A DNA stretch of 64,000 nt from Deltaproteobacteria bacterium (GTDB lineage: Bacteria; Desulfobacterota; Desulfarculia; JACQYL01), in assembly GCA_016208165.1 (NCBI GenBank), contig JACQYL010000001.1, positions 8,099 through 72,098 on the forward strand, written 5' to 3'. The stretch's first letter is position 1, and each line of letters starts with the position of its first letter. The notes beneath the pieces are model-generated. The model was not told the DNA's origin, did no database searches, and was given only the letters and a program-made list of their open reading frames with translations. The position numbers and the translations under genes were made by a program. Below are positions 15,113 to 57,805 of the stretch, one piece after another.

Positions 15113-15202
15113 GCCGTGTTTTCGGGGAAGAGGAATATCTTCCCCGAATCTTCCCCGACCAACGCCCTACGGCTCCCATGAGGGCAAACCCGGAGGAACA
15201 GC

Positions 15203-16349: not shown

Positions 16350-16424
16350 CAAATGATGGAACACATGCAACAAATGAATGATATTCAAGGACCAAGTCAA
16401 GATTGACTTTTGGGCGGTGAAGTC

Positions 16425-17027: not shown

Positions 17028-17184
17028 CGATGTCCCGGCTTGTTTCTTCTTTGAGAGGACCGGGCCGTCACAATGTTTTTTATGTGCGACTTTGCAAAAG
17101 AGAAGATATGACACGGATGTCAAGTCCCGCGTGTTACCGGATTCTTCGTTCGGATGAGCCGCGGACTGTCACGAGGTCGGGAAC

Positions 17185-18243: not shown

Positions 18244-18369
18244 GACGGAATGTTGGACGCCGATATTGAACTGGTCTTTCTGACACGGGTAGCATTGTCT
18301 TGGGGGGGATAATTACAAGTTAATAGGGCCATACGTCTTTGCCAACCTATTCCATGGGAGATCGTATAT

Positions 18370-19212
18370 ATGTCCAATAAGATCAAAAAGATATCTGTTA
18401 TCTTCGTTCTCATAGTTATTGTTACCGTGCTTCACTATTCAACCTCTATGAAGAAAGCGCCATTGCATGTTATATACAGGGAATTGTATCTTATACCCAT
18501 TCTATTAGGCGCAGTTTGGTACGGTATGAAGGGAGGCTTAATAACCTCAATTGCGTCATCCATGGTATATATTCCATGCGCTATGATGAGTTCTTCTGGG
18601 GCGCCGTCGTTCTTTATGGTAAGTAACATAGCTGAAATAGCGACATTTAATATCGTCGCATTGATCGTGGGTAGGTACTCGGACTTGAGGCGAAAGTTTA
18701 TCTTGGGTGAAAAGCCGGAGAAGGGTACTCAGGAATATAAAGTCAATGAATTGAATGAGTTAGATGCTGGGCGAAACATATTGATATGCCTCGAACCATC
18801 GAACGACACATTGAAAGAGGTTGACTATGTGGCACGAATGCTTACCAAAAATGAACATACAAGGGCCACGTTATTGGGTATCTTTCGTGAGCCGAAAGCG
18901 GATTTATTTCCAAGTGAGAACGAGATGAACGCCTACAGAGCGGAGAAGGAAACAGCGTTGGAAGGGATATTGCTTAAGTCGGCGCAGATGTTGAAATCAT
19001 CGGGCCTTGGCGAGGACCAGGTGATCAGCAAGACCGTACGGTTTCAGCACGGTCATGCGGCGGATCAGATCGTCAGAGAACAGGAAAAAGGCCGATACGA
19101 CACCATTGTTGTCGCCGGCGCGAAGATGCCGAAGCAACAGGAATTCTTGTTCGGGAATCTGCCGGTAAAGGTGATTCGTTCTGTTGACTGTCCGGTAATT
19201 ACCGTCTATTAG
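18370..19212 (+). CDS. Membrane-anchored universal stress protein (an N-terminal TM module homologous to that of the adjacent kinase, plus a USP domain)
   Basis: The N-terminus LHYSTSMKKAPLHVIYRELYLIPILLGAVWYGMKGGLITS parallels the kinase's LHYGTDIALSHHHIFYRELYYLPLVLAAFWFGVRGALITS. The C-terminal USP domain reads NILICLEPS...HGHAADQIVREQEKGRYDTIVVAGAK...FGNLPVKVIRSVDCPVITV. Confidence 0.75.
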   Translation: MSNKIKKISVIFVLIVIVTVLHYSTSMKKAPLHVIYRELYLIPILLGAVWYGMKGGLITSIASSMVYIPCAMMSSSGAPSFFMVSNIAEIATFNIVALIVGRYSDLRRKFILGEKPEKGTQEYKVNELNELDAGRNILICLEPSNDTLKEVDYVARMLTKNEHTRATLLGIFREPKADLFPSENEMNAYRAEKETALEGILLKSAQMLKSSGLGEDQVISKTVRFQHGHAADQIVREQEKGRYDTIVVAGAKMPKQQEFLFGNLPVKVIRSVDCPVITVY

Positions 19213-19253
19213 GCGCCGGATTGTTTCCTAACCCTTGAACGAGGACCCAAATC

Positions 19254-19814
19254 ATGCGCAGGCACTTTCGAATCAGAGGGGTTATTGCGGTTTCCATATT
19301 CTTGGGATTATTCGGACTGAGTCTGGTTGCCTGTCAGCCGGACATAGTGAGAACGGTCGAAGAGACTCCTTCGGATCACCCCCACCGGTTGCCGGACACG
19401 AAAGTCGTTGGAGACCATCACGTGTCGTTTCTTGTGGACCACAGGCGAGGAGAAATCGAGATCTTCGTCACAGACGCCCAAGAAAGGCCGGTTCCGTTGG
19501 AAGAGCCTTTCCTCAGGGGTGTTATAGTGACTCCGGCCGGGGCATCGAGAGAGATCCGTCTCGAGCCGGCTCAATACAGGCGACGACGGCTCGTTGTAGG
19601 TCGAGCCTCGTTGAGGAGACCTGACGATCGCACCAATCCGCGCATCCGTTCCGAGTATGTACCCTATACGGCCGTTTTCTGTTACCAGGCCGAGTGGTTG
19701 ATGAAGGAACATGACTATACAATACAAGTGGAGGTTCCCATCAACAACGTCATGCACAAGGCGAGCTTTGACTTCAGCGCCTCCGAGGAAGAAGACCCAC
19801 ATCATCGCCACTGA
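19254..19814 (+). CDS. Hypothetical lipoprotein with His-rich termini
   Basis: Signal peptide plus lipobox (FLGLFGLSLVAC). Contains DHPHRLP..GDHHVSFLVDH and ends in EEEDPHHRH. I recognise no family. Confidence 0.55.
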   Translation: MRRHFRIRGVIAVSIFLGLFGLSLVACQPDIVRTVEETPSDHPHRLPDTKVVGDHHVSFLVDHRRGEIEIFVTDAQERPVPLEEPFLRGVIVTPAGASREIRLEPAQYRRRRLVVGRASLRRPDDRTNPRIRSEYVPYTAVFCYQAEWLMKEHDYTIQVEVPINNVMHKASFDFSASEEEDPHHRH

Positions 19815-22603: not shown

Positions 22604-24508
22604 GTGCTTATTGTGGCGAATAGTCTCCAACAACGTTTGATGTTTTTCGTGCTGATTCCGATTGCGTTTCTGCTGTTTCTGATAGGAAGCATCGGCTTTC
22701 TGTACGCGCGAAACACCATGCTTTCAGAATGGCGGGAAGCCGCCGTTTTGAAGCTTCAACGGGGCGCTCACCAGATGGATATGAGGTTGAGCCGGCCTCT
22801 GGAATGGATACGGATGTTCCAGCAGTCCGGCGAGCTGCTCCAGACATCGATTCAGGATTGGCTCATTTCCCGGCTGCAACAACTCGGGGGAGTGGAAAGC
22901 GCCCATATCGAATGGTTCCCTGAGTACGGGGGCGCAGGTGGTACTTCAGGGGATCACATGGGTGCGGGAACGGGCAAGGACATGAATACGGACATGAAGC
23001 CGTTTCAGGAGGGTGGAGTTGCCCGAATAACCCCGCCAAAATTGGATTCCACCACCGGTAAGAAAACGGTGACCATCGAGTCGAACTTACTGGATAGGGA
23101 CAACCGGACCGTGGGTCAGCTTCAAGTGATCATCAGCTTCGAGTATCTGCTGGAGGGTGTGCTCTCTTCGAGTTGGACCGAAGGAGACAAGGCCTGCCTG
23201 GTCGACGAAAATGGCGCTTATCTGGCTCATACGGCCGCCATCGACGCGGGCCGGCGTCGTCTGGGCGGCGCCGGCGATTCCTTGGAATTAGCCATTTTGG
23301 AGGCCCTGAAAGACCGGCCGTTCGGGACGGTACTAGGCCGTGGACATCCTCCCGGCGAGGTGGCAGGGTTCTGCAGGCTGCAAAATGCCCCATGGACCAT
23401 CGTCGTATTTGCTCCAGGGGATAAAATTCTTGGGCCCATCGTACGATTTCGTACCTATTTCTTCGGCTTCGGAATTATTTGTATCGGCATCGTGCTGATG
23501 CTCATAAGACTGACAACCGCGGGAACGGTCCGCTCGATCCAGGAGATCTCCGCTTCCGCAAAGCAGGTCGCCTCGGGAGACTACGGAAGAACGCTTTCCG
23601 TCAGAAGTCGAGACGAGGTGGGGCAACTGACCAGGAGCTTTAACACCATGATCGCGGAGTTGAGGCAAAAGGAACGGATTCGCAATATGTTCGGACGCTA
23701 CGTGGACAAGGAGGTGGCCGAGGAACTGCTTCGGGGGCCGGAATCGACCCGGCTGGGAGGAGAAAAGCGCGAGGTGGTGATCCTGATGTCCGATTTGCGG
23801 GGGTTCACGCCACTGTGTGAGGCCATGAGTCCGGAAATTGTAATCGGGGTCCTGAATCGCTATTTTTCATATATTATCGGAATCATCCATCGATACAAAG
23901 GTATTATCATCGATTTTGTTGGGGATGCCGTCCTCGTCTTTTTCGACCCGATAACCTCGACCGTCGACGAGAAGGCCAAGGATGCGGTGCAATGCGGTCT
24001 TGAAATGCAGTCCGCCATGGAACGGGTCAACGACGAAAATCAGGGGCTCGGAATACCCCGGTTGAGCATGGGGATCGGGATCCACTCCGGCGAGGTGATC
24101 GTGGGAAACATAGGGTCCCAGTCCAGAGCCAAGTACGGCATTGTGGGCGCGCCCGTGAACCTCACGCAACGGATCCAGTCCGTTGCGGAAGGGGGGGAAG
24201 TGGTGGTCTCCGAATCGGTTCGCCGGCGAACCGGGGAAGCTTTCCGGGTTCTCCGTAGCTTCAAGACCCGGCTCAAAGGAGTGCACGATCAAGTAACCCT
24301 ACACGTTGTCGATGGATCGGTAGAAGTGGGCCATTCACGAGACGGTGGGGAACATCCCGTTCAACATGATCACAGGCCTCCGGAGAGAGACGGACAAAAG
24401 AAATCCTCTGTCCTCGAAGGGGGGAAGGATCAAGAACGGTTTCAGCAGGCGGATCGAAGGGATCCTGTTCCTTCTCCCCGTCGAGGACAGGGAGAAGGAA
24501 CAGGATGA
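22604..24508 (+). CDS. Membrane adenylate/guanylate cyclase (periplasmic sensor - TM - HAMP - class III cyclase)
   Basis: TM1 FFVLIPIAFLLFLIGSIGFLY, a roughly 250-aa extracytoplasmic region, TM2, a HAMP domain (IQEISASAKQVASGDYG..DEVGQLTRSFNTMIAEL), and a cyclase core (VVILMSDLRGFT, FVGDAVLVFF, GIHSGEVIVGNIGS, YGIVGAPVNLTQR). It also has a roughly 70-aa low-complexity basic tail. Confidence 0.85.
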   Translation: MLIVANSLQQRLMFFVLIPIAFLLFLIGSIGFLYARNTMLSEWREAAVLKLQRGAHQMDMRLSRPLEWIRMFQQSGELLQTSIQDWLISRLQQLGGVESAHIEWFPEYGGAGGTSGDHMGAGTGKDMNTDMKPFQEGGVARITPPKLDSTTGKKTVTIESNLLDRDNRTVGQLQVIISFEYLLEGVLSSSWTEGDKACLVDENGAYLAHTAAIDAGRRRLGGAGDSLELAILEALKDRPFGTVLGRGHPPGEVAGFCRLQNAPWTIVVFAPGDKILGPIVRFRTYFFGFGIICIGIVLMLIRLTTAGTVRSIQEISASAKQVASGDYGRTLSVRSRDEVGQLTRSFNTMIAELRQKERIRNMFGRYVDKEVAEELLRGPESTRLGGEKREVVILMSDLRGFTPLCEAMSPEIVIGVLNRYFSYIIGIIHRYKGIIIDFVGDAVLVFFDPITSTVDEKAKDAVQCGLEMQSAMERVNDENQGLGIPRLSMGIGIHSGEVIVGNIGSQSRAKYGIVGAPVNLTQRIQSVAEGGEVVVSESVRRRTGEAFRVLRSFKTRLKGVHDQVTLHVVDGSVEVGHSRDGGEHPVQHDHRPPERDGQKKSSVLEGGKDQERFQQADRRDPVPSPRRGQGEGTG

Positions 24509-33641: not shown

Positions 33642-34877
33642 ATGGCGGGAAACCCGTTTTGGAGCACCAAACTGGAAAACGGACTGTCGTTGGTTTTTGA
33701 AAGCATCCCTCGGCTCGGTTCCACGGCGGTGGGATTTCTCGTGCGCACCGGATCCCGGGACGAACCGAGAAACCGTGCCGGTATGTCTCATTTCTTGGAG
33801 CACATGTGCTTTAAAGGCACGGCCGGGCGTTCCTGGGATCAGATCAATCGGGAGGTGGACGATCTTGGCGCATTGTGGAACGCGTATACCTGGTGGGAAG
33901 GCACGGCTTACTTCCATTGGGTTCAAGCCGAACGTGCGGAGGATTCCATCGACATCCTCGCGGATATGATGCGTCCTAAATTGGACGAAGCGGATTTCAA
34001 CATGGAAAAGGGCGTGATCCTCGAGGAAATCGCCATGTACAATGACAATCCTTCGGCTCTCATTGCCGATCGACTGATACAGGCCGCCTTTGGAGATCAT
34101 CCCTTGGGAACCAGCGTTTTGGGCACCGCGGAGACTGTGACCGCCGTGAGCCACAGCGATATGACGGCTTATTTTCGACGCCGTTACACCCCCAATAACA
34201 TGGTATTCCTGGCCACGGGAGCCATTGAAAGGGAACGGCTCGTGGAAACAGTCCGGCGTCATACGGCGACGTGGACCTCGGGCGAAACGGGAAGATCCCA
34301 ATCCGTCCCGGTGTTTCACTCCGAAACCCGGCCGGCGCACCGTCCGGAGGTTGCACGTGAACATCTGGCCCTGGCTTGGCCCGGACCGGAAGTGGGAAGT
34401 CCGTGGGCGCCCGCCGCACGCGTGCTGGCCCGCTATCTGGGGGAGGAGGAAAACAGCCGTCTGTACTGGTCGGTCAAGCAAAAAGGCCTGGTGGACCGGG
34501 TGAGCGCCTCCCATGTGGGCTTCAACGATTCGGGACTGATGTACGTGTACGCTTCCACCGCTCCGGCCAGAGCCGGAGAAGTCCTGGGGCTCATTCGTGA
34601 GGAGATGGCAAGAGTGCATCGCCGCATCGACGAGGCGGCCCTTTCGAGGTCCAGGATAAAGGCGGAGTCCGCCTTGGTGCGCGAGGCGGAGCACGGCCTC
34701 AGCCGCTGGAACCAGCTGGCGGAAATCGAAAACGCCGGAGCCGCCAGAAAAACGGTGACCCAAGCCATGAAGGATATCGAGGACGTAACGGTGGACCGGG
34801 TAAGGGACTTCCTCGACGAATTTCCTCTGGACGGAGAACCGGCGTTGGTGCCGCTGGGGCCCCTCGAGAGGATCTGA
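33642..34877 (+). CDS. M16-family zinc peptidase (insulinase/pitrilysin-like)
   Basis: GMSHFLEHMCFKG carries the inverted zinc motif HxxEH, and the downstream WWEGTAY.. region is present. 411 aa. Confidence 0.85.
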   Translation: MAGNPFWSTKLENGLSLVFESIPRLGSTAVGFLVRTGSRDEPRNRAGMSHFLEHMCFKGTAGRSWDQINREVDDLGALWNAYTWWEGTAYFHWVQAERAEDSIDILADMMRPKLDEADFNMEKGVILEEIAMYNDNPSALIADRLIQAAFGDHPLGTSVLGTAETVTAVSHSDMTAYFRRRYTPNNMVFLATGAIERERLVETVRRHTATWTSGETGRSQSVPVFHSETRPAHRPEVAREHLALAWPGPEVGSPWAPAARVLARYLGEEENSRLYWSVKQKGLVDRVSASHVGFNDSGLMYVYASTAPARAGEVLGLIREEMARVHRRIDEAALSRSRIKAESALVREAEHGLSRWNQLAEIENAGAARKTVTQAMKDIEDVTVDRVRDFLDEFPLDGEPALVPLGPLERI

Positions 34878-34881
34878 TCCG

Positions 34882-34892
34882 GGATCATGATC
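34882..34892. repeat. Left copy of the 11-bp GGATCATGATC repeat bracketing the 35-39 kb cassette
   Basis: It is identical to 38998-39008 and contains the palindrome GATCATGATC. Confidence 0.4.
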
Positions 34893-35640
34893 GACAAAAC
34901 CAACATCATCGCAGCGTTGCTGGAGAGATTGGACAACACGCCCATGGGGCATCATCCGGATATCCGGCCGTATAAAAGAAACTGATCGGTCGTGGTCGTG
35001 CGAAGGACCGAAACGGTTTATGAAATCATTGAAGAAGGATTCTTCTGCGACCGTTTTTCCGTGGAGGCCTCCGGGTTGAAGAAAAGCCTGCGGGTAATGA
35101 TCAAAAAGGAGTTTCCGCGAAGCCACAAAATATGGGTGTACGCCATGGAGCCGTATCCGCAGGAAGAACCGCACGGCACGGAGAGAAAGAAGATTTGAGG
35201 ATTGTTTCACAGATGGTCCGCTTGGGGCCACGGAAAGAGAGGCTGTTGGGTAAGCTAGAGAATCGGAAAGAAGTCAACATGCGGGCTTGCCCCCCGACAC
35301 AGTCCTCTCTCGATAAAATGATATGATTCCGACCTCCTTCCGGGAATTCTTTCCAGAAAGTCCTAAGCTTGCTTCTCTTGGCTTTTCTGGCTATAAATAT
35401 CGACGAATACGGGCTAATAATACAGCAAGGCCTTTTGCATAAACTCTTCATTAGGTTAGGAGCGTCATCGGGGGCAGCGAAGTAAGGAAGATCGTCCTTC
35501 TTGAAGTGATGCGATGTTCAAGGCGGGTACTCTGAAAAGACTGAACAATCTGTTCATCTACCGGGAGCGAATCGCCAAAAAGCTGTTTGTCTCGGAACTC
35601 TGTTACAACCGATCCCTTTAATAGAGCCAGGGGAACGCAC

Positions 35641-36816
35641 ATGAATCGATTTGAAAACCTTCAAGAATTAGAAATAGACACTGAATCGGCATGCTCCGAT
35701 TCCGCCCCAGAAGACGGTGGTGTTGAACCCGAGGAAGTGGAGGGAGACGAGCCCATAACACAGCCCTTCGATCCCACAAAGACGCAGATCATCACTTCAT
35801 GGCCGACGGTTAGCCTCTTGGTGACGAGGATACAAGAGGGAGAAATCGATCTGTTCCCAAGTTTTCAGAGAAAGGCGGACCTCTGGTCGCCAGCCCAGAA
35901 AAGTCGCCTGATAGAATCATTACTGCTTCGCATGCCCCTGCCCTCTTTCTATTTCGACGCCACTGACGACGAAAACTGGGTCGTAGTGGATGGACTGCAG
36001 CGTCTTTGGACGTTACAGGAGTTTCTCCTAAGCGACATGAGGCTTCATCACCTCGAGTTTTTGATTAATTACGAAAATAGCATGTTCAAAGACTTACCCC
36101 GACACCTGCAGAGACGTATCGGAGAGACGCAGGTCGTTGCGCATCTCATTCAGCCGGGCACACCACCCCAGGTAAAGTTTAACATATTTAGGCGAATCAA
36201 CACGGGTGGATTAGTTCTCTCGGCCCAAGAGATCAGGCACGCACTGAATCAAGGGAATGCACCCCAATTCCTAAAGAAACTCGCGTGCTCGAAGGCTTTC
36301 TTAGAGGCGACCCAAGGGAGCGTGCGCCCCGATCGTATGGAAGATCAGGAATTTGTACTTCGTTTCATGGCTTTCACGATCGTTCCGTACCCTCAATATA
36401 AGGTAGCAGATCTTGATGGGTTTCTGCATGAACAAATGGCTAGATTGAACACCGTCGGAAATGATGAGCTCGAAGACCTAGAGGTGAGATTTCAACGGGC
36501 TATGAGAGCATCAAGGCTGATCTTTGGAAGACAGGCCTTCAGGAAAAGCCTTAGGGATGGGGTTTCGGCCTGGAGAAATCCCATCAACAAGGCCATCTTT
36601 GAGGTCTGGTCCGTCACTCTGGGCCAACTCACTGAAGATAAATTAGAACATTTAATCCACCGAAAAGATGACGTCATCAGTAGATTTATTGAGGTTTTGA
36701 ACACTAATGACGAGTTTGTCGCCGCGGTATCTCAAGGAACTGGGGACGTAAAGAAAGTGAAGCAGCGGTTTAAAACCGTTGCCAAACTTGTAGAGGATAT
36801 CCTCAATGCAAACTAA
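35641..36816 (+). CDS. DUF262 (ParB/sulfiredoxin-like NTPase fold) protein, cassette gene A
   Basis: DLFPSFQRKADLWSPAQKSRLIESLLLRMPLPSFYFDATDDENWVVVDGLQRLWTL shows the FQR and DGQQR-type (here DGLQR) motifs of DUF262. Downstream is RRINTGGLVLSAQEIRHAL. The N-terminal 40 aa are acidic. Confidence 0.8.
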   Translation: MNRFENLQELEIDTESACSDSAPEDGGVEPEEVEGDEPITQPFDPTKTQIITSWPTVSLLVTRIQEGEIDLFPSFQRKADLWSPAQKSRLIESLLLRMPLPSFYFDATDDENWVVVDGLQRLWTLQEFLLSDMRLHHLEFLINYENSMFKDLPRHLQRRIGETQVVAHLIQPGTPPQVKFNIFRRINTGGLVLSAQEIRHALNQGNAPQFLKKLACSKAFLEATQGSVRPDRMEDQEFVLRFMAFTIVPYPQYKVADLDGFLHEQMARLNTVGNDELEDLEVRFQRAMRASRLIFGRQAFRKSLRDGVSAWRNPINKAIFEVWSVTLGQLTEDKLEHLIHRKDDVISRFIEVLNTNDEFVAAVSQGTGDVKKVKQRFKTVAKLVEDILNAN

Positions 36817-37927
36817 TCACCTGCAGGCCATCCATCTAATGAATTTTAAGTGCTTCGAAGACCAGAAGGTTTCGCTTGCTCCGATTACCCTCCTCACAGG
36901 TCTCAACGGCATGGGTAAGTCAACAGTATTACAGAGCTTGTTGCTGCTTCGACAATCGGCCATGCGGAACGTGTTGGAACACTATGGTTTGCTACTGAAC
37001 GGCGATTTGGTGAATCTGGGCAGGGCAGGCGATGTGCTGTTCGAAGGTGCTCGAGACGAGCATATTGTTCTTGAATTGACCGTTGGCGGGATGCAGGAGT
37101 CCTGGAAATTCAGGTATGAGGATCCCCATGCGGACGTGCTGATGCTGGAAGAGGGACCAAAGGTCTTGCCTGAATGGGTGGTTTTCGGCAATCGATTCCA
37201 TTATTTGGCGGCTGAGCGCATGGGGCCACGAGAAATCTACGAGATCTCTGCCTACTATGTTCGCAAATTGCGACAATTGGGCGCAGATGGGCGATTCGCG
37301 GTGGCCTATCTTGAAGAATACGGAAAAAGCCTGCGGTGCCTCCAAGGGTTGCTGCATCCGAAAACCTCTGACTCGACGGAGGAAAATCTTTATTCACAGG
37401 TTAACTTGTGGCTGGGAGAAATCAGTCCTGGTGCGCGATTGGAACCGATTTCCTTCCCGGACATAGGCAAGACTTCGTTGAGGGTTTCCTTTCCTTCTTC
37501 TACCAAGGGGCTAATGTCCAGACCATATTCGACGCCCAATGTCGGCTTCGGTTTCAGTTATACGCTCCCGGTTCTTGTGGCCGTTCTGTCGTCTTCTTCA
37601 GGAGATTTGGTTCTCATGGAAAATCCGGAGGCACATCTGCATCCGCAGGGACAAGTGGCGTTGGGGCGACTGTTCGCACTCGCCGCGTCTGGCGGGATAC
37701 AACTCATTGTGGAGACTCACAGTGATCATATACTGAACGGAGTACGCGTAGAAGTGAGGGATGGTTGTATTGCCAGCGAGGATGTGCGCATTCATTTTTT
37801 CCAACGGAACCAGCCTGGTGGGCAGCATTTTGTGGAGTCTCCTCGGGTGGATAAGGATGGACGAATCGATAACTGGCCGGAAGGATTTTTCGATCAAACA
37901 GAGCGTCTCCTAATGGAATTGATTTAA
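36806..37927 (+). CDS. ABC-type/AAA_15-21-like ATPase with a DUF3696-like C-terminus, cassette gene B
   Basis: IHLMNFKCFEDQKVSLAPITLLTGLNGMGKSTVLQSL (Walker A); LVLMENPEAHLHPQGQ (Walker B / D-loop type); LIVETHSDHIL (H-loop); C-terminal NWPEGFFDQ. The start overlaps gene A by 11 nt. Confidence 0.8.
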   Translation: MQTNHLQAIHLMNFKCFEDQKVSLAPITLLTGLNGMGKSTVLQSLLLLRQSAMRNVLEHYGLLLNGDLVNLGRAGDVLFEGARDEHIVLELTVGGMQESWKFRYEDPHADVLMLEEGPKVLPEWVVFGNRFHYLAAERMGPREIYEISAYYVRKLRQLGADGRFAVAYLEEYGKSLRCLQGLLHPKTSDSTEENLYSQVNLWLGEISPGARLEPISFPDIGKTSLRVSFPSSTKGLMSRPYSTPNVGFGFSYTLPVLVAVLSSSSGDLVLMENPEAHLHPQGQVALGRLFALAASGGIQLIVETHSDHILNGVRVEVRDGCIASEDVRIHFFQRNQPGGQHFVESPRVDKDGRIDNWPEGFFDQTERLLMELI

Positions 37928-37945
37928 GGCCGCAGGGTTCCCCGA

Positions 37946-38902
37946 TTGCATCAGATATTGAACGAGTTGTCTTTCCAGAAGGTCTCTACGAGCGTAAAGG
38001 ATGCCCAGGAACGCATGCATATGCTCTTGCTCGTTTTCAAGGCCGTTGCTGATTGCGGTTCTGAGAAGATCCTTCGTACCAAACGAAACCTTATGTCCGA
38101 ATTGGTTGCTTCCCAATATACTGTCTCGCACTGGCTTCAGGACAGACGCGTGAACCGGGACGAACGGTTATTATTCAAGACCGTAGCAACGAAAGCCCCT
38201 TTTGTCGAGGAACTCTGGAACAAATTGGAATCAGACGACTTGGGCCTGCACGAATTCTATTTCCAAGGTCAAAAAGCTGAGGGTTTGGGCGTGGCTTATC
38301 TTGACGATACATGTGCTCTTTCCCTTGGAGGTGATCAGAGGTTCGAACAGGATCCCATTCAAGTCGTGTATCAAGTGATGTATGCCCTAAATAGTAGATT
38401 GGGATCCGAAACTGTGGAAGTCTGCTCTTTGAGTAACTTAGACCATGTATGCCGCCGTTGCGTATGGATTGGTGAACGTGCTCAAAGACAGGTCGTCGAT
38501 GGGGTCTCACTCTGGGAGCAAAAGGAATCTCTATTTCCTCGTCTCGCGTTTCTCCCTGCAACCAAGGCGCAAATTCAACAGTTATCGGGGCGTGAACCTC
38601 ATTTCCGCCAAGTTCTTAAACATCTTTTCATACTGAACAGTGCGATGAAAAAGTGGGCTGGAGGGCCGTACAACCCGGAAGGCATCGAATGGTCCGCAGA
38701 AAGCCTGTCTACAAGGACCAGCAAGAAACTTGCGGACGCCCGCAGGTTTTCTAATTCTAACGGTAACTTCGCAGTATATAATTACCACACGAAGATTAGA
38801 GGCATCAACTGGCGCATACACTTCCATCCTGATACTGAAAAACAGATCGTGACCATAGCATACATAGGACGACATCTGCCAACAGCCAGACACGGAAAGT
38901 AA
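37946..38902 (+). CDS. Hypothetical protein, cassette gene C (no recognised family; C-terminal RelE/ParE-like signature)
   Basis: 318-aa ORF 18 nt after gene B. The start is the TTG at 37946 or the ATG at 38015. The C-terminus ..FAVYNYHTKIRGINWRIHFHPDTEKQIVTIAYIGRHLPT resembles the terminal beta-strands of RelE/ParE/HigB toxins. Confidence 0.6.
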   Translation: MHQILNELSFQKVSTSVKDAQERMHMLLLVFKAVADCGSEKILRTKRNLMSELVASQYTVSHWLQDRRVNRDERLLFKTVATKAPFVEELWNKLESDDLGLHEFYFQGQKAEGLGVAYLDDTCALSLGGDQRFEQDPIQVVYQVMYALNSRLGSETVEVCSLSNLDHVCRRCVWIGERAQRQVVDGVSLWEQKESLFPRLAFLPATKAQIQQLSGREPHFRQVLKHLFILNSAMKKWAGGPYNPEGIEWSAESLSTRTSKKLADARRFSNSNGNFAVYNYHTKIRGINWRIHFHPDTEKQIVTIAYIGRHLPTARHGK

Positions 38903-38997
38903 AAGCAGCCGACTCAAGTTCAAGACTTCCATTCTTTTTTTTGCAGAAGCGGAACAGCTATTCGGTTTCCGATTGGGATCTCAATATTTACCTGCCA

Positions 38998-39008
38998 GGA
39001 TCATGATC
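38998..39008. repeat. Right copy of the 11-bp GGATCATGATC repeat bracketing the cassette
   Basis: It is identical to 34882-34892 and sits within the 14-bp palindrome AGGATCATGATCCT. Confidence 0.4.
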
Positions 39009-39197
39009 CTTTTCTCCCCCACTGCGGCCGCATTTTTTAAATAGACGACCACCGGATTTCGTTCTATATTCAGGTACATCCTCTTCTAAAGGGAGCTCTG
39101 GAGGTTCATTCGTCGGGGAGCGGGCCTGGTGGCGCCGGCTGAGCAGGTAGGAAGTTCCCCCGGCGGACCGGGCCGATTCGAACCATGGGATGACCCT

Positions 39198-39875
39198 ATG
39201 CACGAAAGTCATGTGTCCATCGAAGTAGCGGGTGCGGGCGGCGTGTCGGGTATCGTTTCCATGCCGGGCGATTTCCGCCCGGGTACGGGGACTGCGGTGG
39301 TCCTCGCCCACGGAGCGGGCAATGACATGCACAACCCGTTGCTCGAGGCCGTGGCTTCGGGACTGGCGGATGCCGGGTATCCGGCGCTACGGTTTAATTT
39401 TCCTTACAAGGAACAGGGGCGCAAGGCCCCGGACCGCCGGGAAATCCTCGAGTCGGCCTGGCAATCCGCGTTCGAATTTATGGAAGAACACGACGAAATC
39501 AGACCGGAACGCGTGGTGGCCGCCGGAAAATCCATGGGCGGCCGCATCGCCGCCGAGATGGTGTCCGCCGGCGCACTGCCCGCGGACCGGCTCGTCTTTC
39601 TGGGATATCCGTTGCACGCGCCCGGCGAGAAAGATCGCCTGCGGGATGCCCGTCTTTATGATATTTCGGTTCCCATGCTGTTCTTCGCCGGCTCAAGGGA
39701 CTCTTTATGCGATCTGAAACTTCTCAGGAGCGTGTTGTCCAAACTGAGAGCGCCCTGGGACCTCGAGGTCATTGATGGGGGCGACCATTCCTTTAAGTTG
39801 CCCAGAGCGTCCGGGATTTCAGAAACCGATGTATTTGCCCGTATCGTGAGCAAGATGCTTGACTGGCTCACTTAG
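39198..39875 (+). CDS. Alpha/beta hydrolase (dienelactone hydrolase / KANL3-Tex30-like)
   Basis: VVLAHGAGNDMHNPLL, the nucleophile elbow GKSMGGR, and DGGDHSF (catalytic His context). I took the internal ATG at 39198 as the start. Confidence 0.75.
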   Translation: MHESHVSIEVAGAGGVSGIVSMPGDFRPGTGTAVVLAHGAGNDMHNPLLEAVASGLADAGYPALRFNFPYKEQGRKAPDRREILESAWQSAFEFMEEHDEIRPERVVAAGKSMGGRIAAEMVSAGALPADRLVFLGYPLHAPGEKDRLRDARLYDISVPMLFFAGSRDSLCDLKLLRSVLSKLRAPWDLEVIDGGDHSFKLPRASGISETDVFARIVSKMLDWLT

Positions 39876-39971
39876 GCTTTCAGCAACATCAGGCAGGTGT
39901 ATCACGGAATTTTGGCCAAGAACCCGTTCAACAAGCATCCGCCACTCAAAAGATAGGGACCACCACCCACC

Positions 39972-41066
39972 ATGCCGAATACAGACAAGAAACGTTTGAT
40001 GACCCGGTTGCTGAGCCTGACAGGAGCGTTGCTGCTGCTTTTGCTCCTGGGGCTCTGGGTGACGAGGGCGTTCAATGAAAAGATTGCGCCGGACAAAATT
40101 CCTTTGTCCGAGGCCCGCATAGGACCGGGGGATACTCCGGCGGCTGTTGAATGGACCGAAATGCCCCTGGTGGCGGAGGCTGTGGGAACGGTGAGGGCCA
40201 AACACAGCACGCTGATCGCGAGTAAACTCCTCGAACGCGTGGAAAAGGTCAATGTTTATGCAGGAGATCTAGTGAAAGCAGGGGACCTTCTGATCGAGCT
40301 GGACCGCGGGGAGCTCGAGGCCAGGAAGGCGGCGGCCCGGGCAGGCTACGAGTCCGCCAAGGCGGAAGGCATGCTCCGGTCACGGGAATTCCGTCGGGTC
40401 AGCGAACTGTTGGATCGGAAGTCCGCCAGTGAGCAGGAATTCGATCTGGCGAAAATGAAAAAGTCCGCGGCCGAAGCGAATGTCGACAGAGCGTTGGAAG
40501 AAATCCAGGTGGTGGAATCGTCTTTGAAATTTACCCGGATTCCTGCACCCGTCAACGGCAGAATTATCGAACGCATGGTGGAGCCGGGAGATATGGCCGT
40601 ACCCGGAAAAACGCTGCTCACCATGTACGATCCCGCCAATCTGCGACTCGAGGCGACGGTTCGGGAATCGCTGCTGCCGTTCATCCGCCTTGGAATGGAG
40701 CTCGATATGCGAATTGACGCCGGCGATTGCAGTTGTCGGGGCCCCGTCGAAGAAATCGTTCCCCAGGCTTCCGAGACGAGCCGCGCCTTTACGGTGAAGG
40801 TGGTCCTTCCCTATCGTGAGGGGCTTTTCCCCGGTATGTTCGGTCGGCTGTATGTACCTCACGGCGCCACCCACCGGCTCCTCGTTCCCGCATCCGCGGT
40901 CCGACGGATCGGACAGGTTGAACTCGTGGACCTGGTGCGTCCGGACGGGACGGTCGTGCGGCAGGAGGTGCAAACGGGCAGACGGTTCGGGGACCGGCTC
41001 GAGGTCCTTTCGGGAATCGAGTCTCCCGAGCCGGGAGCCCCGCTTCAGCGGGTTCTGCTGCATTGA
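39972..41066 (+). CDS. Efflux RND transporter periplasmic adaptor (MFP/HlyD family)
   Basis: N-terminal TM/signal, GDLVKAGDLLIELD (lipoyl-like), a coiled coil (ELEARKAAARAGYESAKAE...EANVDRALEE), and TRIPAPVNGRIIE. Confidence 0.85.
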   Translation: MPNTDKKRLMTRLLSLTGALLLLLLLGLWVTRAFNEKIAPDKIPLSEARIGPGDTPAAVEWTEMPLVAEAVGTVRAKHSTLIASKLLERVEKVNVYAGDLVKAGDLLIELDRGELEARKAAARAGYESAKAEGMLRSREFRRVSELLDRKSASEQEFDLAKMKKSAAEANVDRALEEIQVVESSLKFTRIPAPVNGRIIERMVEPGDMAVPGKTLLTMYDPANLRLEATVRESLLPFIRLGMELDMRIDAGDCSCRGPVEEIVPQASETSRAFTVKVVLPYREGLFPGMFGRLYVPHGATHRLLVPASAVRRIGQVELVDLVRPDGTVVRQEVQTGRRFGDRLEVLSGIESPEPGAPLQRVLLH

Positions 41067-52149: not shown

Positions 52150-52740
52150 ATGGGTAAAAAATCCAAGAAAAACCGGAAATCAAAGAAAGGAAAACCAAAC
52201 CACCAAAAACGGCCCATATCAAACCAATCCGAAAGGCGCAAAAAAGTTCAAGAAAAAAACTTCTCAAAAATATCAATAGTTCCAAAAAAGTTAATTGCTA
52301 TAATCTGTACTCTCTCAAGTATAATAGCATTTGTCTTTTTGTTTTTCCCAAGAGTGGCTCTCGAAATTGGACCAATATTAAAACCAAATGATCCATTCAA
52401 GAATATTTTATACCTTTCAAATAATGGGTATTTCCCTATTTATAAAATATCTTGTTCGGTATATATCGTAGAGGCAAAAGGTGAAAATGCCAATTTCAGC
52501 CGTAATAATGTCTGGGATGTAAAAGGATTAAATTTACCTAAAATATCACCAGACGATAAAGCTCCATTAAGGCTTGAACATGTACTTAATATACAACCAT
52601 TCATTTTAGATCGTATTAAAGTGAAATTAACTATAAATTGTAAACTTTGGCCGATTCCGTTAAATTTTACTAAAGTTTTCCATATAGAGGCCAAGCAAAC
52701 CTTTGATAAGAAGTGGATTTGGATTCATTCAACGGAATAG
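52150..52740 (+). CDS. Orphan AT-rich hypothetical membrane protein
   Basis: 196 aa with a Lys-rich N-terminus (MGKKSKKNRKSKKGKPNHQKRP), one TM helix (LIAIICTLSSIIAFVFLFF) and a roughly 120-aa C-terminal domain. Its composition differs sharply from the flanking sequence. Confidence 0.5.
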   Translation: MGKKSKKNRKSKKGKPNHQKRPISNQSERRKKVQEKNFSKISIVPKKLIAIICTLSSIIAFVFLFFPRVALEIGPILKPNDPFKNILYLSNNGYFPIYKISCSVYIVEAKGENANFSRNNVWDVKGLNLPKISPDDKAPLRLEHVLNIQPFILDRIKVKLTINCKLWPIPLNFTKVFHIEAKQTFDKKWIWIHSTE

Positions 52741-52787: not shown

Positions 52788-53852
52788 TCAGGGTTCCAAA
52801 TTCAGCGAAGAGGCATGCTTGCGATAGAGCCCCCGGAACTGGTGGTAGGTGAGGCCCAGAAGCTCGGCCGCTTTATGCTGGCGGAAGCGGGCCTCGAGGA
52901 GGGCCCGCTGAATCAGTCGAATTTCAAGATCGGCCACCTGCCGGGTCAACGGGGTGTCCAGGGCTAGGGCGGGTTCAAGCGGAGACTGGACCGCCGAATC
53001 AGCGGTCTGGCTCTGTTCGGAAGGGGGCGCCAAAACGGATTCAGGGAACGGATCGAAGACGATTTCTTTAATGGATTCAGAGTCGGATCGGTAAACGGCG
53101 CGTTCCACTACGTTCTTGAGTTCGCGTACATTTCCGGGCCAGGAATAGGCCTCAAGGGAGATCATGGCCTCTCGAGTGAACACCGGCAGGGCGTCGTGTC
53201 CCAATTCCTTTGCGATGCGCGAAGCGAAGTGACGCGCGAGAAGAGACACATCTCCCGCCCTGTTCCTGAGCGCCGGCAACAGCAGTACTTCAAAGGAGAG
53301 CCGGTCGAGGAGGTCGCGTTTGAACCGGCCTTCGCGCGCCAGGGCCGGCAAGTCCGCATTGGTGGCCCCGATGATGCGGACATCGACCATTACGACGTCC
53401 GACCCTCCAACCCGTTCAAAAGTGCCGTATTCCACGACGCGAAGAATTTTCTCCTGGGCTTCAAGGGGAATATTGCCGATTTCGTCGAGGAAAAGCGTAC
53501 CCCCGTGAGCGGCCTCGAAGCGCCCTATTCTTCGTTTGACGGCGCCGGTAAACGCCCCCGGCTCATACCCGAAGAGCTCGGATTCGATGAGGCCCGGAGA
53601 GAGGGCCGCGCAATTCAGAGCAAGCAGGGGACTCCTCCAACGGTGGGAAAGATAATGGAGACGGGAGGCGGCCAGTTCCTTACCGGTTCCTCTTTCTCCG
53701 ATGATGAGGATTGGGCGGTCCACACGTGCGGCCCGAGATAGACGCTCCTGGAAATCCAGAAAGGATTCCGACTCACCAAGGCCTTCCTGGGAAGCGAGGG
53801 CGGGCATGTCGGTCTGGTTGCGAGTGAAGGATGACATGGTGTATATTACCAT
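52788..53852 (-). CDS. pspF: Sigma-54-dependent activator PspF (AAA+ and HTH domains, no receiver domain)
   Basis: ILIIGERGTGKE (Walker A), GAFTGA loop (YEPGAFTGA), TLFLDEIG, GNVRELKNVVERA, and a C-terminal HTH (HKAAELLGLTYHQFRGLYRKH). It is divergent from pspA. The start is at 53852 or 53837. Confidence 0.85.
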   Translation of the reverse strand: MVIYTMSSFTRNQTDMPALASQEGLGESESFLDFQERLSRAARVDRPILIIGERGTGKELAASRLHYLSHRWRSPLLALNCAALSPGLIESELFGYEPGAFTGAVKRRIGRFEAAHGGTLFLDEIGNIPLEAQEKILRVVEYGTFERVGGSDVVMVDVRIIGATNADLPALAREGRFKRDLLDRLSFEVLLLPALRNRAGDVSLLARHFASRIAKELGHDALPVFTREAMISLEAYSWPGNVRELKNVVERAVYRSDSESIKEIVFDPFPESVLAPPSEQSQTADSAVQSPLEPALALDTPLTRQVADLEIRLIQRALLEARFRQHKAAELLGLTYHQFRGLYRKHASSLNLEP

Positions 53853-56200: not shown

Positions 56201-57805
56201 TCAGATACCGAAGATTTCTCGTATTCCGAACAGCAATTTGTCTCTGATCGACGCCTCTTTCCTCCCTCCGGTCAGCGCTTTGAGCCGGACCGATTCGCTC
56301 TCCATATATTTTTGGTCGGACAGCTCGACCGCGCGTTCTTTCTCCGCAAGGCGCGTCGCCAACACAGAACTGATGTTTTCCGCAAGAGCGGGATGGCTCT
56401 TGATGATGTGTTGAAAACTCTTCCTATGTAAGACAAATACTTCGCAATCCGTTTCGGCCGTCACGGTTGCCGAGCGCTTTTCTCCGGTCAGGACGGAAAG
56501 CTCTCCGAAAAAGTTTCCGGCAGTGAGACAGGCTATTCGAGTCCGTTGCTTCTGCGATGAATCCGCATACACCTCCACGCTTCCCGATCCGACGATGTAA
56601 AAGGATTCTCCATCGTCACCTTGCCTGATCAGGGTTTCCCCCTGGGAATAGTACTCGACGTACACTTCGCCGCTCAAGAACCGGAAATCATCATCGCTGA
56701 GGGGGGACAGGAAGTCGATGGATCGAAGTATCTTTTCAACGGCGCTCTTTCTTTCTTCCGGGGTGACTTCGGGTTGCACCCGCACGTCACGAACGGGATA
56801 AGGAATTTTGATGCCGTTCCGCTTAAATTGATACCAGATCCGGCGAAATACCTTATCTTCTATGGCGCGAACCCTATCGTAATCGGTGATCCAAAAACGA
56901 AGCTGGTAAACGATCGCGAAGTCGCCGTATTCAATCAAAAACACGGTGGGAGGGGGGGTCTTCTGGACTTCATCGATACCGAGAGCGCTCTGTATCAAAA
57001 CGGCGGCCGCTTGATTCGGCGGGTGATCGTACGAAACGCCGATGTTCTTTCTGCAAAGATGACTTCTCCAGGGAGCGGAGTAGTTGACAAGGCTCGATTT
57101 CGCAATCGCGTTGTTCGGAACAACGATCATGTCCTCGGATCGGTCCACGAGTTTGACCGAACGCCAGTTGATTTCAATCACCCTGCATTCTTTGCCTTCG
57201 ACGAGCACCCAGTCTCCTATCTTGAAGGGATTGTCCATCTGAATGGACAATCCGGCGAACAGATTTCCAAGCGTATCCTGGAGCGCCAAGCCGATGATCA
57301 GAGAAAATATGGCCGAGGTAGTGAGCAACGAGGTGAAATTGACATTGAAATAGACTCCCAGAAGCCAGATAACAATGATGAGATATAGAATGACTTTGCC
57401 GCTGTCCCGAACCAAAGCGGGTATTTTATGTTTGGACGGTCGACGTCGATAGTGCGCTTCCAGAAAAAGACTCACGGTCCCAATGGCGATATAAACGGAT
57501 ATCACCGCCAGAAGGATCTGTACTAAGGTCGGAACATGACCGGTGTACCCCTGCAGGAAGAAGGCTAGGTGGATGCTCGCCAAAATAGTGGCTATGTGCA
57601 CGACGGACAAGAACCTTCGGTTGGTGGTCTTGAACTGGTCCCACACGTCTTTGAACACCGCTGGAAGAATACGCCTCGTCAGAACCAGCGTCAGGATACG
57701 AACCAGAAGATAGAAGAGGACGCCGCAACCCACGGATAGCGCCATTTGCTCCAGAGCGTTCAGGTTTGAATAGAACGCTCGAATCGATGTTATATAAGGC
57801 TTCAA
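56201..57805 (-). CDS. MscS-family mechanosensitive channel fused to a cyclic-nucleotide-binding domain
   Basis: MscS core (LIIGLALQDTLGNLFAGLSIQMDNPFKIGDWVLVEGKECRVIEINWRSVKL...VVPNN) and a C-terminal cNMP domain (GETLIRQGDDGESFYIVGSGSVEV...FFGELSVLTGEKRSATVTA). Confidence 0.85.
   Translation of the reverse strand: MKPYITSIRAFYSNLNALEQMALSVGCGVLFYLLVRILTLVLTRRILPAVFKDVWDQFKTTNRRFLSVVHIATILASIHLAFFLQGYTGHVPTLVQILLAVISVYIAIGTVSLFLEAHYRRRPSKHKIPALVRDSGKVILYLIIVIWLLGVYFNVNFTSLLTTSAIFSLIIGLALQDTLGNLFAGLSIQMDNPFKIGDWVLVEGKECRVIEINWRSVKLVDRSEDMIVVPNNAIAKSSLVNYSAPWRSHLCRKNIGVSYDHPPNQAAAVLIQSALGIDEVQKTPPPTVFLIEYGDFAIVYQLRFWITDYDRVRAIEDKVFRRIWYQFKRNGIKIPYPVRDVRVQPEVTPEERKSAVEKILRSIDFLSPLSDDDFRFLSGEVYVEYYSQGETLIRQGDDGESFYIVGSGSVEVYADSSQKQRTRIACLTAGNFFGELSVLTGEKRSATVTAETDCEVFVLHRKSFQHIIKSHPALAENISSVLATRLAEKERAVELSDQKYMESESVRLKALTGGRKEASIRDKLLFGIREIFGI

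What the first reader, a model, noticed from the sequence alone, without database searches (positions are those of the whole stretch)
35641..38902. Three-gene DUF262 / ABC-type ATPase / unknown-protein cassette: candidate defence system
Three co-directional, tightly packed genes sit between unrelated housekeeping genes (an M16 peptidase pair and a hydrolase). Genes A and B overlap by 11 nt, and B and C are 18 nt apart. The segment is visibly AT-richer than its flanks. Gene A has the DUF262 FQR and DGQQR-type (DGLQR) motifs of ParB/Srx-fold NTPases, which are found in GmrSD, SspE and other restriction or defence proteins. Gene B is an SMC/ABC-like ATPase with Walker A (GLNGMGKST), ENPEAHLHPQ and ETHSDH motifs, and its C-terminal WPEGFFD resembles what I recall of DUF3696. 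Gene C (318 aa) has no family I can name. DUF262 plus AAA_15/21 ATPase pairings recur in published defence modules; I recall SspFGH-type and Menshen-type trios but am not certain of their exact domain content. No phosphorothioation genes (dnd or ssp) or methyltransferase genes are present in the window, so this would be a stand-alone module. A sensor NTPase, an ATPase and an unknown effector inside an inserted island is the typical shape of an undescribed anti-phage or anti-plasmid system.
Basis: partly seen in the sequence, partly recalled or inferred. Interest (0 to 1): 0.85.

Follow-up and report, generated by a model that had tools for sequence, protein, structure and literature searches.

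The report
Menshen (NsnABC) anti-phage defence cassette
The three genes are a complete, intact copy of Menshen, an anti-phage defence system named in 2022 and catalogued in about 2,000 genomes in 2025, so the cassette is real but not new.

Summary
Three co-directional genes (35641-36816, 36806-37927, 37946-38902) overlap by 11 nt and are spaced by 18 nt. They sit in a low-GC segment between an M16 peptidase pair and an alpha/beta hydrolase.

The cassette is not an undescribed system. All three proteins match the PADLOC models for Menshen end to end: NsnA 1e-136, NsnB 4e-111, NsnC 1e-65.
- NsnA has the DUF262 motifs.
- NsnB has the family-specific EN Walker B, a GxG signature motif and the DUF3696 tail.
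- Gene C has no Pfam hit, but it models with pLDDT 90.8 as a PIN-like N-domain plus a RelE/YoeB/YafQ-fold (BECR) C-domain. Its invariant H281-R290-H310 triad matches the published NsnC architecture.

Gene C relatives follow DUF262 and DUF3696 genes in every locus inspected, including two plasmids. Comparison with a sister genome shows purifying selection on all three genes. No second defence system is detectable in the window.

The best reading is a Type I Menshen with a BECR RNase effector. The sensor-transducer-effector mechanism is a published hypothesis and has not been demonstrated. Novelty: already known. Interest is low. The minor residual points are a mis-called NsnC start in the public annotation and a highly conserved acidic motif in the supposedly inactive PIN-like domain.

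The parts
35641..36816 (+). nsnA: ParB-like DUF262 NTPase plus C-terminal DNA-binding (ParBDB) region, with an acidic loop of about 60 aa at the N-terminus and no extra N-terminal globular domain (Type I). Motifs: QRKADLW (aa 76), DGLQR (aa 117; nt 35989-36003), FRRIN (aa 183).
   Evidence: PADLOC NsnA 1e-136, residues 26-389 on model positions 22-384 of 385. Pfam GmrSD_N 1.6e-20, residues 64-201. Motifs. Identical to MBI4772599.1. Substitutions against the sister genome by codon position are 20/7/51.
36806..37927 (+). nsnB: ABC/OLD-type ATPase with a DUF3696 C-terminal helix. Walker A GLNGMGKS (nt 36899-36922), Walker B LVLMEN with EN in place of DE (nt 37607-37624), GFG signature (aa 247), H-loop ETHSDH (aa 303), DUF3696 at aa 322-372 (nt 37769-37921).
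   Evidence: PADLOC NsnB 4.4e-111, model positions 2-343 of 345. Pfam AAA_15, AAA_21 and DUF3696. Motifs match the NsnB peculiarities described in PMC12065111. Substitutions by codon position are 12/9/35.
37946..38902 (+). nsnC: effector. It has an N-terminal PIN-like domain (about aa 1-160, nt 37946-38425), a helical linker, and a C-terminal BECR (RelE/YoeB/YafQ-fold) RNase domain (about aa 240-318, nt 38663-38899). The putative catalytic residues are H281 (38786-38788), R290 (38813-38815) and H310 (38873-38875). The true start is most likely the TTG at 37946, not the ATG about 25 codons downstream used in the public annotation (293 aa).
35199..35640 (+). Non-coding leader upstream of nsnA, presumed to be the promoter and 5' UTR region of the operon.
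   Evidence: 89.5% identical to the sister genome L005. Every alternative ORF on either strand is broken by stop codons in L005. No Rfam match. The consensus scan found no sigma-70-like promoter, which is uninformative for this lineage.
34878..39128 (.). Low-GC segment that contains the cassette, taken as the putative extent of the acquired DNA. The boundaries are approximate.
   Evidence: GC 0.494, in the lowest 0.4% of same-size windows. No tRNA, integrase or conserved flanking repeat was found.

Best explanation
This is a complete Type I Menshen anti-phage defence operon (nsnA-nsnB-nsnC), acquired horizontally by an uncultured bacterium whose MAG is labelled Deltaproteobacteria.

Shown here: the three proteins belong to the NsnA, NsnB and NsnC families; they are arranged as an operon; they keep all family motifs; they evolve under purifying selection.

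Inferred from the published model (Li et al. 2025, PMC12065111) and from characterised relatives: NsnA, a ParB-like DUF262 NTPase with a DNA-binding domain, senses invading phage DNA. It signals to NsnB, an ABC ATPase predicted to form a tetramer that holds NsnC's PIN-like domain between paired DUF3696 tails. ATP binding or hydrolysis by NsnB then activates or releases NsnC. NsnC's RelE/YoeB/YafQ-fold domain, with its H281-R290-H310 triad, cleaves RNA, either phage transcripts or host RNA in an abortive-infection manner. The steps from NsnA to NsnB and from NsnB to NsnC, and the RNA target, are hypotheses that have not been demonstrated for any Menshen system.
For: Near full-length, very strong matches to the PADLOC Menshen models: NsnA 1e-136, NsnB 4.4e-111, NsnC 1e-65. 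The next-best systems score far lower (PD-T4-2_A 7e-33, HEC-03B 9e-36).

NsnA has the three DUF262 motifs. NsnB has the EN Walker B, the GxG signature motif and the DUF3696 tail that the literature describes as NsnB-specific.

Synteny: NsnC relatives follow GmrSD_N and AAA_15/DUF3696 genes in six independent loci with unrelated flanks, including two plasmids.

Purifying selection acts on all three genes against a sister genome.

Experimental defence by S. silvestris Menshen against T2, T4, T6 and Fado is reported in the literature, as is loss of defence when the DUF262 gene is mutated or deleted.
Against: No experiment exists for this locus or its host. The mechanism is a bioinformatic model only, and no Menshen component has a solved structure. 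I could not run PADLOC or DefenseFinder themselves, nor check the supplementary catalogue of 1,997 loci, which is not held. The NsnA motif I reads QRxxxxW here, one residue longer than the quoted QRxxxW. The window's NsnC departs from its family consensus at several conserved non-catalytic positions: H161S, C203L, C270N, D272N and G305A. A 2026 preprint disputes that Menshen PIN domains are inactive.
Confidence: 0.93

Rival explanations
1. It belongs to a different DUF262-based system, such as PD-T4-2, Dazbog, a GmrSD/BrxU-type type IV restriction enzyme, or an Ssp-associated (SspE or SspFGH-like) module that has lost its modification genes.
For: NsnA also matches PD-T4-2_A (7e-33) and a type II REase model (5e-12) through the shared DUF262 domain. 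Pfam names the domain GmrSD_N.
Against: The NsnA match is about 100 orders of magnitude better and covers the full length. There is no DUF1524/HNH nuclease domain. No ssp, dnd or methyltransferase genes were found among 57 other ORFs in the window. The partner genes match NsnB and NsnC specifically.
Confidence: 0.02
2. The cassette acts mainly as a toxin-based addiction or stabilisation module for mobile DNA rather than as phage defence. In this reading NsnC is a RelE/YoeB-like toxin held in check by NsnAB.
For: The NsnC C-domain has the fold of type II TA toxins. On the 7.6-kb Psychrobacter plasmid pA40P3 the trio is essentially the only cargo besides Rep and Mob. The Methylobacterium copy sits between a Mu-like transposase and IS66.
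Against: The founding member gives phage defence experimentally, as cited. Here the cassette is chromosomal, between housekeeping genes, and is retained under purifying selection in two genomes diverged by about 12%. The two roles are also not mutually exclusive.
Confidence: 0.04
3. The cassette is a decaying, non-functional remnant of a Menshen system.
For: The window's NsnC differs from the family consensus at five positions that are 80-94% conserved. The public annotation truncates it to 293 aa. No other defence genes are nearby.
Against: All three ORFs are full length relative to the HMMs. All catalytic motifs are intact. Substitutions against the sister genome are biased to third codon positions in every gene, with synonymous-to-nonsynonymous codon changes of 47:26, 35:18 and 80:48. 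The truncation is an annotation artefact, because the TTG-initiated N-terminus is conserved.
Confidence: 0.03

Closest known systems
Menshen (NsnA-NsnB-NsnC), founding member from Solibacillus silvestris StLB046 (Millman et al. 2022; dissected in Li et al. 2025, NAR, PMC12065111)
   Same: Same three-gene order. NsnA is DUF262 plus a C-terminal DNA-binding domain with no extra N-terminal domain (Type I). NsnB is an ABC ATPase with EN Walker B, a GxG motif and a DUF3696 tail. NsnC is a PIN-like N-domain plus a BECR C-domain with an H-R-H triad. PADLOC models match over their full length.
   Different: The host is an uncultured environmental MAG. NsnC is only about 24-37% identical to most relatives recovered here. 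The PIN-like subfamily (inPIN1, inPIN11 or another) and the BECR subfamily could not be assigned, because the published family alignments are not available. The abundance of this NsnC type (1,050 representatives at E <= 1e-30) fits the majority inPIN1 plus PB-BECR1 class, but this is an inference.
Septu (PtuAB), PARIS (AriAB) and Gabija (GajAB): ABC/OLD-type ATPase plus nuclease defence systems
   Same: NsnB shares the AAA_15/AAA_21 ABC ATPase fold. It gives weaker PADLOC and PDB hits to AriA, PtuA, GajA and OLD. The published prediction is that the ATPase oligomer holds and regulates a nuclease effector.
   Different: Those systems have no ParB/DUF262 partner, and their effectors are HNH or Toprim DNases or tRNases, not a PIN-like plus BECR protein. 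NsnB lacks a fused Toprim domain.
GmrSD / BrxU / SspE (DUF262-DUF1524 enzymes)
   Same: They share the DUF262 NTPase sensor domain with QR..W, DGxQR and FxxxN motifs, followed by a helical DNA-binding region.
   Different: Those are single polypeptides with a DUF1524 HNH nuclease and they sense modified DNA. Here the nuclease is a separate RNase-fold protein and an ABC ATPase is interposed. No DUF1524 domain is present.
Type II toxin-antitoxin RNases YoeB, YafQ and RelE
   Different: Sequence identity is 5-19%. The catalytic set is H-R-H rather than the YafQ H-D-H triad. The domain is fused to a PIN-like domain. No antitoxin gene is present. Control is presumed to be through NsnB.

Membership tests
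Menshen (NsnABC) | NsnA: ParB-like DUF262 domain with motifs QRxxxW, DGxQR and FxxxN, followed by the ParBDB C-terminal domain | tested here: met
   PADLOC NsnA 1e-136 over model positions 22-384 of 385. Pfam GmrSD_N 1.6e-20. DGLQR and FRRIN are exact; motif I is QRKADLW, with one extra residue.
Menshen (NsnABC) | NsnB: ABC ATPase (AAA_15) with Walker A, EN in place of DE in Walker B, GxG in place of SGG, an H-loop, and a C-terminal DUF3696 helix | tested here: met
   PADLOC NsnB 4.4e-111. Pfam AAA_15, AAA_21 and DUF3696 1.4e-16. GLNGMGKS, LVLMEN, GFG and ETHSDH are present. Criteria taken from PMC12065111.
Menshen (NsnABC) | NsnC: N-terminal PIN-like domain plus C-terminal effector (nuclease) domain | tested here: met
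Menshen (NsnABC) | The three genes are adjacent and co-directional in the order A-B-C, and the association is conserved across genomes | tested here: met
   11-nt overlap and 18-nt gap. The same order is found in L001, L002/L003, L004, L005/L006, L087 and L088, with unrelated flanks.
Menshen (NsnABC) | Confers protection against phage; defence depends on the DUF262 gene | not testable with these tools
   Reported only for the S. silvestris system, against T2, T4, T6 and Fado. Cloning and phage challenge of this locus are needed.
Menshen (NsnABC) | Called as Menshen by PADLOC or DefenseFinder, or listed among the 1,997 catalogued loci | not tested
   The pipelines are not available here. Only the PADLOC HMMs were run. 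The supplement of PMC12065111 is not held.
Type I vs Type II Menshen | Type I: NsnA lacks an additional globular N-terminal sensor domain | tested here: met
   DUF262 starts at residue 64. Residues 1-60 are an acidic, proline-rich loop with no Pfam hit. The length and coverage equal those of the 385-position NsnA model. No structure was predicted for NsnA.
PB-BECR1 effector subfamily of NsnC | BECR fold with an H-R-H catalytic triad at positions comparable to the YafQ H-D-H triad | tested here: inconclusive
   The fold and an invariant H281-R290-H310 are present. The published PB-BECR1 alignment was not available for direct comparison, and spatial superposition could not be checked because the tool returns no coordinates.
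GmrSD / SspE type IV-like enzymes | DUF262 fused to a DUF1524 HNH nuclease in one polypeptide | tested here: not met
   No DUF1524 hit in any of the three proteins.
Canonical (catalytically active) PIN domain | Four conserved acidic residues (D-E-D-D) at the C-terminal edge of the parallel sheet | tested here: inconclusive
   E7 (96% acidic), D66 (93%), D/E72 (89%) and D/E103 (89%) are conserved, along with N6, S9 and S126. The loop after the third strand, where the canonical third Asp sits, is not conserved. Spatial clustering could not be examined.

The most novel reading that the evidence does not exclude
The PIN-like domain of this abundant NsnC subfamily is published as inactive (inPIN). 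It nevertheless carries a nearly invariant N6-E7-x-S9 motif immediately after strand 1, plus conserved D66, D/E72, D/E103 and S126, across 160 representatives with a median of 29% identity to the window protein. If these residues cluster into a metal-binding site, NsnC would be a dual-nuclease effector (PIN plus BECR). A 2026 preprint argues this for a different Menshen effector family. Alternatively, the motif could be the docking surface for the NsnB DUF3696 tails. Separately, nsnA and nsnB show only 9-12% synonymous codon differences to the sister genome, against 24-27% for nsnC and the housekeeping flanks, with a sharp step at the B/C junction. This could record a recent recombinational exchange between the sensor-transducer module and the effector module.
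Probability: 0.15. Interest if true: 0.35.

Novelty: already known. Interest (0 to 1): 0.1.

Why it matters
Little new biology follows. The locus adds one more chromosomal, stand-alone Type I Menshen from an uncultured lineage to a family already catalogued in at least 27 phyla. It has three practical uses. First, the public annotation (DUF262 protein, DUF3696 protein, hypothetical protein) can be upgraded to NsnA, NsnB and NsnC. Second, the NsnC start codon should be moved about 25 codons upstream to the TTG at 37946, because the current call removes the most conserved motif of the N-terminal domain. Third, the conservation table for the PIN-like domain gives concrete residues (N6, E7, S9, D66, D72, E103, S126) for anyone testing whether Menshen PIN domains are truly inactive. 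The mechanism of Menshen itself remains open, but this locus makes that question no more tractable than the hundreds of others already known.

Tried and rejected
1. Island boundaries. A 14-nt direct repeat (34879 and 38995) brackets the low-GC segment, but it is not conserved in the sister genome L005, so I rejected it as chance.

2. Empty-site test. The closest genome-collection relatives of the M16 peptidase are only 49-54% identical (Latescibacterota MAGs). They keep the M16a-M16b pair but not the hydrolase or HlyD neighbours, so no true empty site could be found. None has nsn genes there.

3. Sister contig L005/L006. It is colinear across the whole 7 kb, so it gives no boundary information.

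4. Hidden gene or RNA in the 760-nt gap upstream of nsnA. There are no Pfam hits for the small ORFs. The ORFs in the 35199-35640 leader are broken by stops in L005. There are no Rfam hits. The 68-aa ORF at 34992-35198 shows weak coding signal (14 synonymous against 21 nonsynonymous changes) and an in-frame TGA relative to the 86-aa L005 version. The 90-aa divergent gene upstream of nsnA in L002/L003 has no counterpart here.

5. A second defence system in the window. The PycC, PycTIR, RtcR and PDC-M60B hits proved to be generic cyclase, cNMP-binding, sigma-54 AAA+ and receiver-region matches in genes that are far apart from one another.

6. The other low-GC stretch at 15-19 kb. It holds a Rex-like regulator, a histidine kinase and a Usp protein, not defence genes.

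7. PDB sequence searches. They found no solved Menshen component.

8. The catalogue supplement of PMC12065111 is not held.

9. No tRNA genes are present in the window. No integrase gene was found near the cassette, although integrases were not searched for specifically.
Full report
OBSERVATION. The window carries three co-directional ORFs on the + strand, exactly as described.
- A: 35641-36816, ATG start, 391 aa.
- B: 36806-37927, 373 aa, overlapping A by 11 nt.
- C: 37946-38902, TTG start, 318 aa, 18 nt after B.

A and B are identical to NCBI proteins MBI4772599.1 ('DUF262 domain-containing protein') and MBI4772600.1 ('DUF3696 domain-containing protein'). Both come from a MAG labelled Deltaproteobacteria bacterium. 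C corresponds to MBI4772601.1 ('hypothetical protein HY788_00235'), which is annotated about 25 codons shorter.

The segment 34878-39128 has a GC content of 0.494, against 0.547 for the whole window. That is in the lowest 0.4% of same-size windows. The three genes have GC3 of 0.51-0.55, against 0.66-0.71 for their neighbours. The neighbours are two M16 peptidases upstream and an Abhydrolase_11 hydrolase, an HlyD-type adaptor and an RND pump downstream. Each gene has a plausible purine-rich Shine-Dalgarno element 6-9 nt upstream of its start (read directly from the sequence).

IDENTITY. Pfam finds GmrSD_N/DUF262 in A, AAA_15, AAA_21 and DUF3696 in B, and nothing in C. The PADLOC library is decisive.
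- A matches NsnA at 1e-136, covering model positions 22-384 of 385.
- B matches NsnB at 4.4e-111, covering positions 2-343 of 345.
- C matches NsnC at 1e-65, covering positions 4-304 of 305, with a second NsnC model at 1.6e-64.

The next-best systems score far lower: PD-T4-2_A at 7e-33 for A, and HEC-03B at 9e-36 for B. NsnA, NsnB and NsnC are the three components of Menshen. This system was named by Millman et al. in 2022. The Solibacillus silvestris copy was shown to protect against T2, T4, T6 and Fado, and defence was lost when the DUF262 gene was mutated or deleted (as summarised in PMC12065111 and PMC10952713).

A dedicated comparative study (Li et al., NAR 2025, PMC12065111) catalogued 1,997 Menshen loci in at least 27 phyla and defined the architecture of each component.

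FEATURE-BY-FEATURE COMPARISON.

NsnA. The published definition is a ParB-like DUF262 domain with motifs QRxxxW, DGxQR and FxxxN, followed by a helical DNA-binding 'ParBDB' domain. Type I systems have no additional N-terminal globular domain. Here the motifs are QRKADLW (one residue longer than the quoted pattern), DGLQR and FRRIN. DUF262 begins at residue 64, after an acidic, proline-rich loop. The protein is co-linear with the 385-position NsnA model. This is therefore a Type I Menshen.

NsnB. The paper describes an ABC ATPase whose Walker B 'DE' is replaced by 'EN' and whose SGG signature is replaced by GxG, with a Walker A motif, an H-loop and a C-terminal DUF3696 helix. Here the protein has GLNGMGKS, LVLMEN, GFG and ETHSDH, plus DUF3696 at residues 322-372.

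So gene C is not an unknown effector. It has the published NsnC architecture.

SYNTENY AND DISTRIBUTION. The word-indexed search found only 13 NsnC relatives. The exhaustive profile search of 1.84 billion cluster representatives found 1,050 at E <= 1e-30 and 3,809 at E <= 1e-3, nearly all full length. This NsnC type is therefore common. That fits the statement that most Menshen loci are Type I with inPIN1 and PB-BECR1, although I could not assign the subfamily directly.

In every relative locus I inspected, the NsnC homologue directly follows a GmrSD_N gene and an AAA_15/DUF3696 gene, and the flanks are unrelated to one another. The loci are:
- an Oscillatoria MAG (L001);
- a 2.7-Mb contig where the cassette sits next to a phage-type integrase (L002/L003);
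- another contig where it lies between two Uma2 genes (L004);
- the sister lineage (L005/L006);
- the 7.6-kb Psychrobacter plasmid pA40P3, where it is the only cargo besides Rep and Mob (L087);
- a Methylobacterium plasmid, between a Mu-like transposase and IS66 (L088).

IS IT FUNCTIONAL? A JGI metagenome contig (L005) is colinear with window 33918-40974 at 88.5% nucleotide identity. Substitutions are concentrated at third codon positions in all three genes:
- nsnA 20/7/51 by codon position, with 47 synonymous and 26 nonsynonymous codon changes;
- nsnB 12/9/35, with 35 synonymous and 18 nonsynonymous;
- nsnC 29/22/97, with 80 synonymous and 48 nonsynonymous.

The genes are therefore under purifying selection and are not decaying.

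The TTG at 37946 and the following 25 codons are conserved, with 6 synonymous and 3 nonsynonymous changes. They encode the LNELS motif, which is 97-100% conserved across the family. The public 293-aa annotation therefore truncates the protein.

IS IT AN INSERTED, STAND-ALONE ISLAND? The GC and GC3 anomaly, the unrelated housekeeping flanks and the patchy, mobile distribution of the cassette all support horizontal acquisition. I could not define the borders.
- There are no tRNA genes in the window, and no integrase gene was noticed near the cassette.
- The one bracketing 14-nt repeat is not conserved in the sister genome.
- The nearest genome-collection relatives of the M16 peptidase are too distant (49-54% identity, Latescibacterota MAGs) to provide an empty site. 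None of the 33 loci examined has nsn genes next to the peptidase pair.

A PADLOC screen of 57 other ORFs of at least 110 aa in the window gave only generic hits:
- a HAMP plus class III cyclase protein;
- the cNMP-binding domain of an MscS-like channel, which matches Pycsar effector models only over that domain;
- a sigma-54 AAA+ activator;
- the N-terminal region of a hybrid kinase.

These genes are far apart from one another.

MECHANISM. Shown here are family membership, operon organisation, intact motifs and selective constraint. What follows is inferred from the literature.
- NsnA senses phage DNA through its DUF262 and ParBDB domains, by analogy with GmrSD, BrxU and SspE, in which DUF262 NTPase activity couples DNA recognition to nuclease activation.
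- NsnB is predicted by AlphaFold 3 to form a GajA-like homotetramer. Its paired DUF3696 tails clamp the NsnC PIN-like domain, as PtuA holds PtuB and AriA holds AriB.
- ATP binding or hydrolysis would activate or release NsnC, whose BECR domain cleaves RNA.

How NsnA signals to NsnB, and whether phage or host RNA is the target, are unknown for every Menshen system. Mass photometry in a 2025 preprint showed only that Menshen forms higher-order complexes. No component has a solved structure, and I found no newer mechanistic paper in the held library. I put identity as Menshen at about 0.93-0.95 and the specific sensor-transducer-RNase scheme at roughly 0.5.

RESIDUAL POINTS OF INTEREST.

(i) The PIN-like domain is called inactive in the 2025 paper. 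In this subfamily, however, N6 (every sequence that has a residue at that position), E7 (96% acidic), S9, D66 (93%), D/E72 (89%), D/E103 (89%) and S126 (97%) are strongly conserved. The loop after the third strand, where the canonical third PIN aspartate would sit, is not conserved, so the classical tetrad looks incomplete. A 2026 preprint argues that PIN domains of another Menshen effector family may be active. I had no access to model coordinates, so I could not test whether these residues cluster.

(ii) Between the two sister genomes, the region from about 36.0 to 37.9 kb (the 3' part of nsnA plus nsnB) is 93-99% identical, with 9-12% synonymous-only codon differences. nsnC and the housekeeping flanks show 24-27%. 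The identity drops sharply at the B/C junction. This is compatible with the module exchange described for Menshen, but it rests on a single pairwise comparison.

VERDICT. The novelty class is 'already known' and the interest is low, at about 0.1.

Noticed in passing
window 37946-38020: The public annotation of NsnC (MBI4772601.1, 293 aa) starts about 25 codons too far downstream. The TTG at 37946 and the LNELS motif it encodes are conserved in the sister genome and in 97-100% of 160 family members, so the annotated protein lacks the most conserved motif of its N-terminal domain.
   Followed up: yes
window 36000-37930 versus 37930-38900 (compared with L005): Divergence from the sister genome is mosaic. 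The 3' part of nsnA and all of nsnB are 93-99% identical (9-12% synonymous-only codon differences). nsnC and the housekeeping flanks show 24-27%. The step at the B/C junction is sharp, which may reflect a recent recombinational exchange of the sensor-ATPase module.
   Followed up: partly
window 34938-35198: A small ORF lies between the M16 peptidase and nsnA. It is 86 aa in sister contig L005, but in the window an in-frame TGA (about 34983) replaces CGA, leaving a 68-aa GTG-initiated ORF. It has no Pfam hit and its substitution pattern is only weakly coding-like (14 synonymous against 21 nonsynonymous). It is either a decaying gene or not a gene.
   Followed up: partly
NsnC residues 6-9, 66, 72, 103, 126 (window 37961-38323): The 'inactive' PIN-like domain carries a nearly invariant N-E-x-S motif after strand 1, plus conserved D66, D/E72, D/E103 and S126, across 160 diverse relatives. 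This could be a catalytic site or an NsnB-docking surface. It is relevant to a current dispute in the literature.
   Followed up: partly
window 52150-52740 (+): An AT-rich orphan ORF of 196 aa, with GC3 of 0.28 against about 0.65 for its neighbours. It encodes a lysine-rich N-terminus followed by a transmembrane helix and has no PADLOC hit. It lies next to a sigma-54 AAA+ activator (52788-53852, minus strand) and looks like a small foreign insertion.
   Followed up: no
window 15000-19300: A second low-GC stretch (0.493), as extreme as the Menshen segment. It includes an ORF-poor region at 15.1-16.3 kb, followed by a histidine kinase (17185-18243) and a Usp-domain protein (18370-19212). No defence genes were detected.
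   Followed up: partly
window 33642-34877 and loci L007-L013: The MAG is labelled Deltaproteobacteria, but the best genome-collection relatives of its M16 peptidase are Latescibacterota MAGs (49-54% aa identity). The taxonomic label of the source may be unreliable.
   Followed up: no
window 22604-24505 (+) and 56204-57805 (-): A HAMP plus class III nucleotide cyclase and an MscS-like channel with a cNMP-binding domain both match PADLOC Pycsar models (PycC 8e-23; PycTIR 1e-16). The matches cover only their generic domains, and the genes are 32 kb apart. This is a likely false-positive trap for automated defence annotation.
   Followed up: yes
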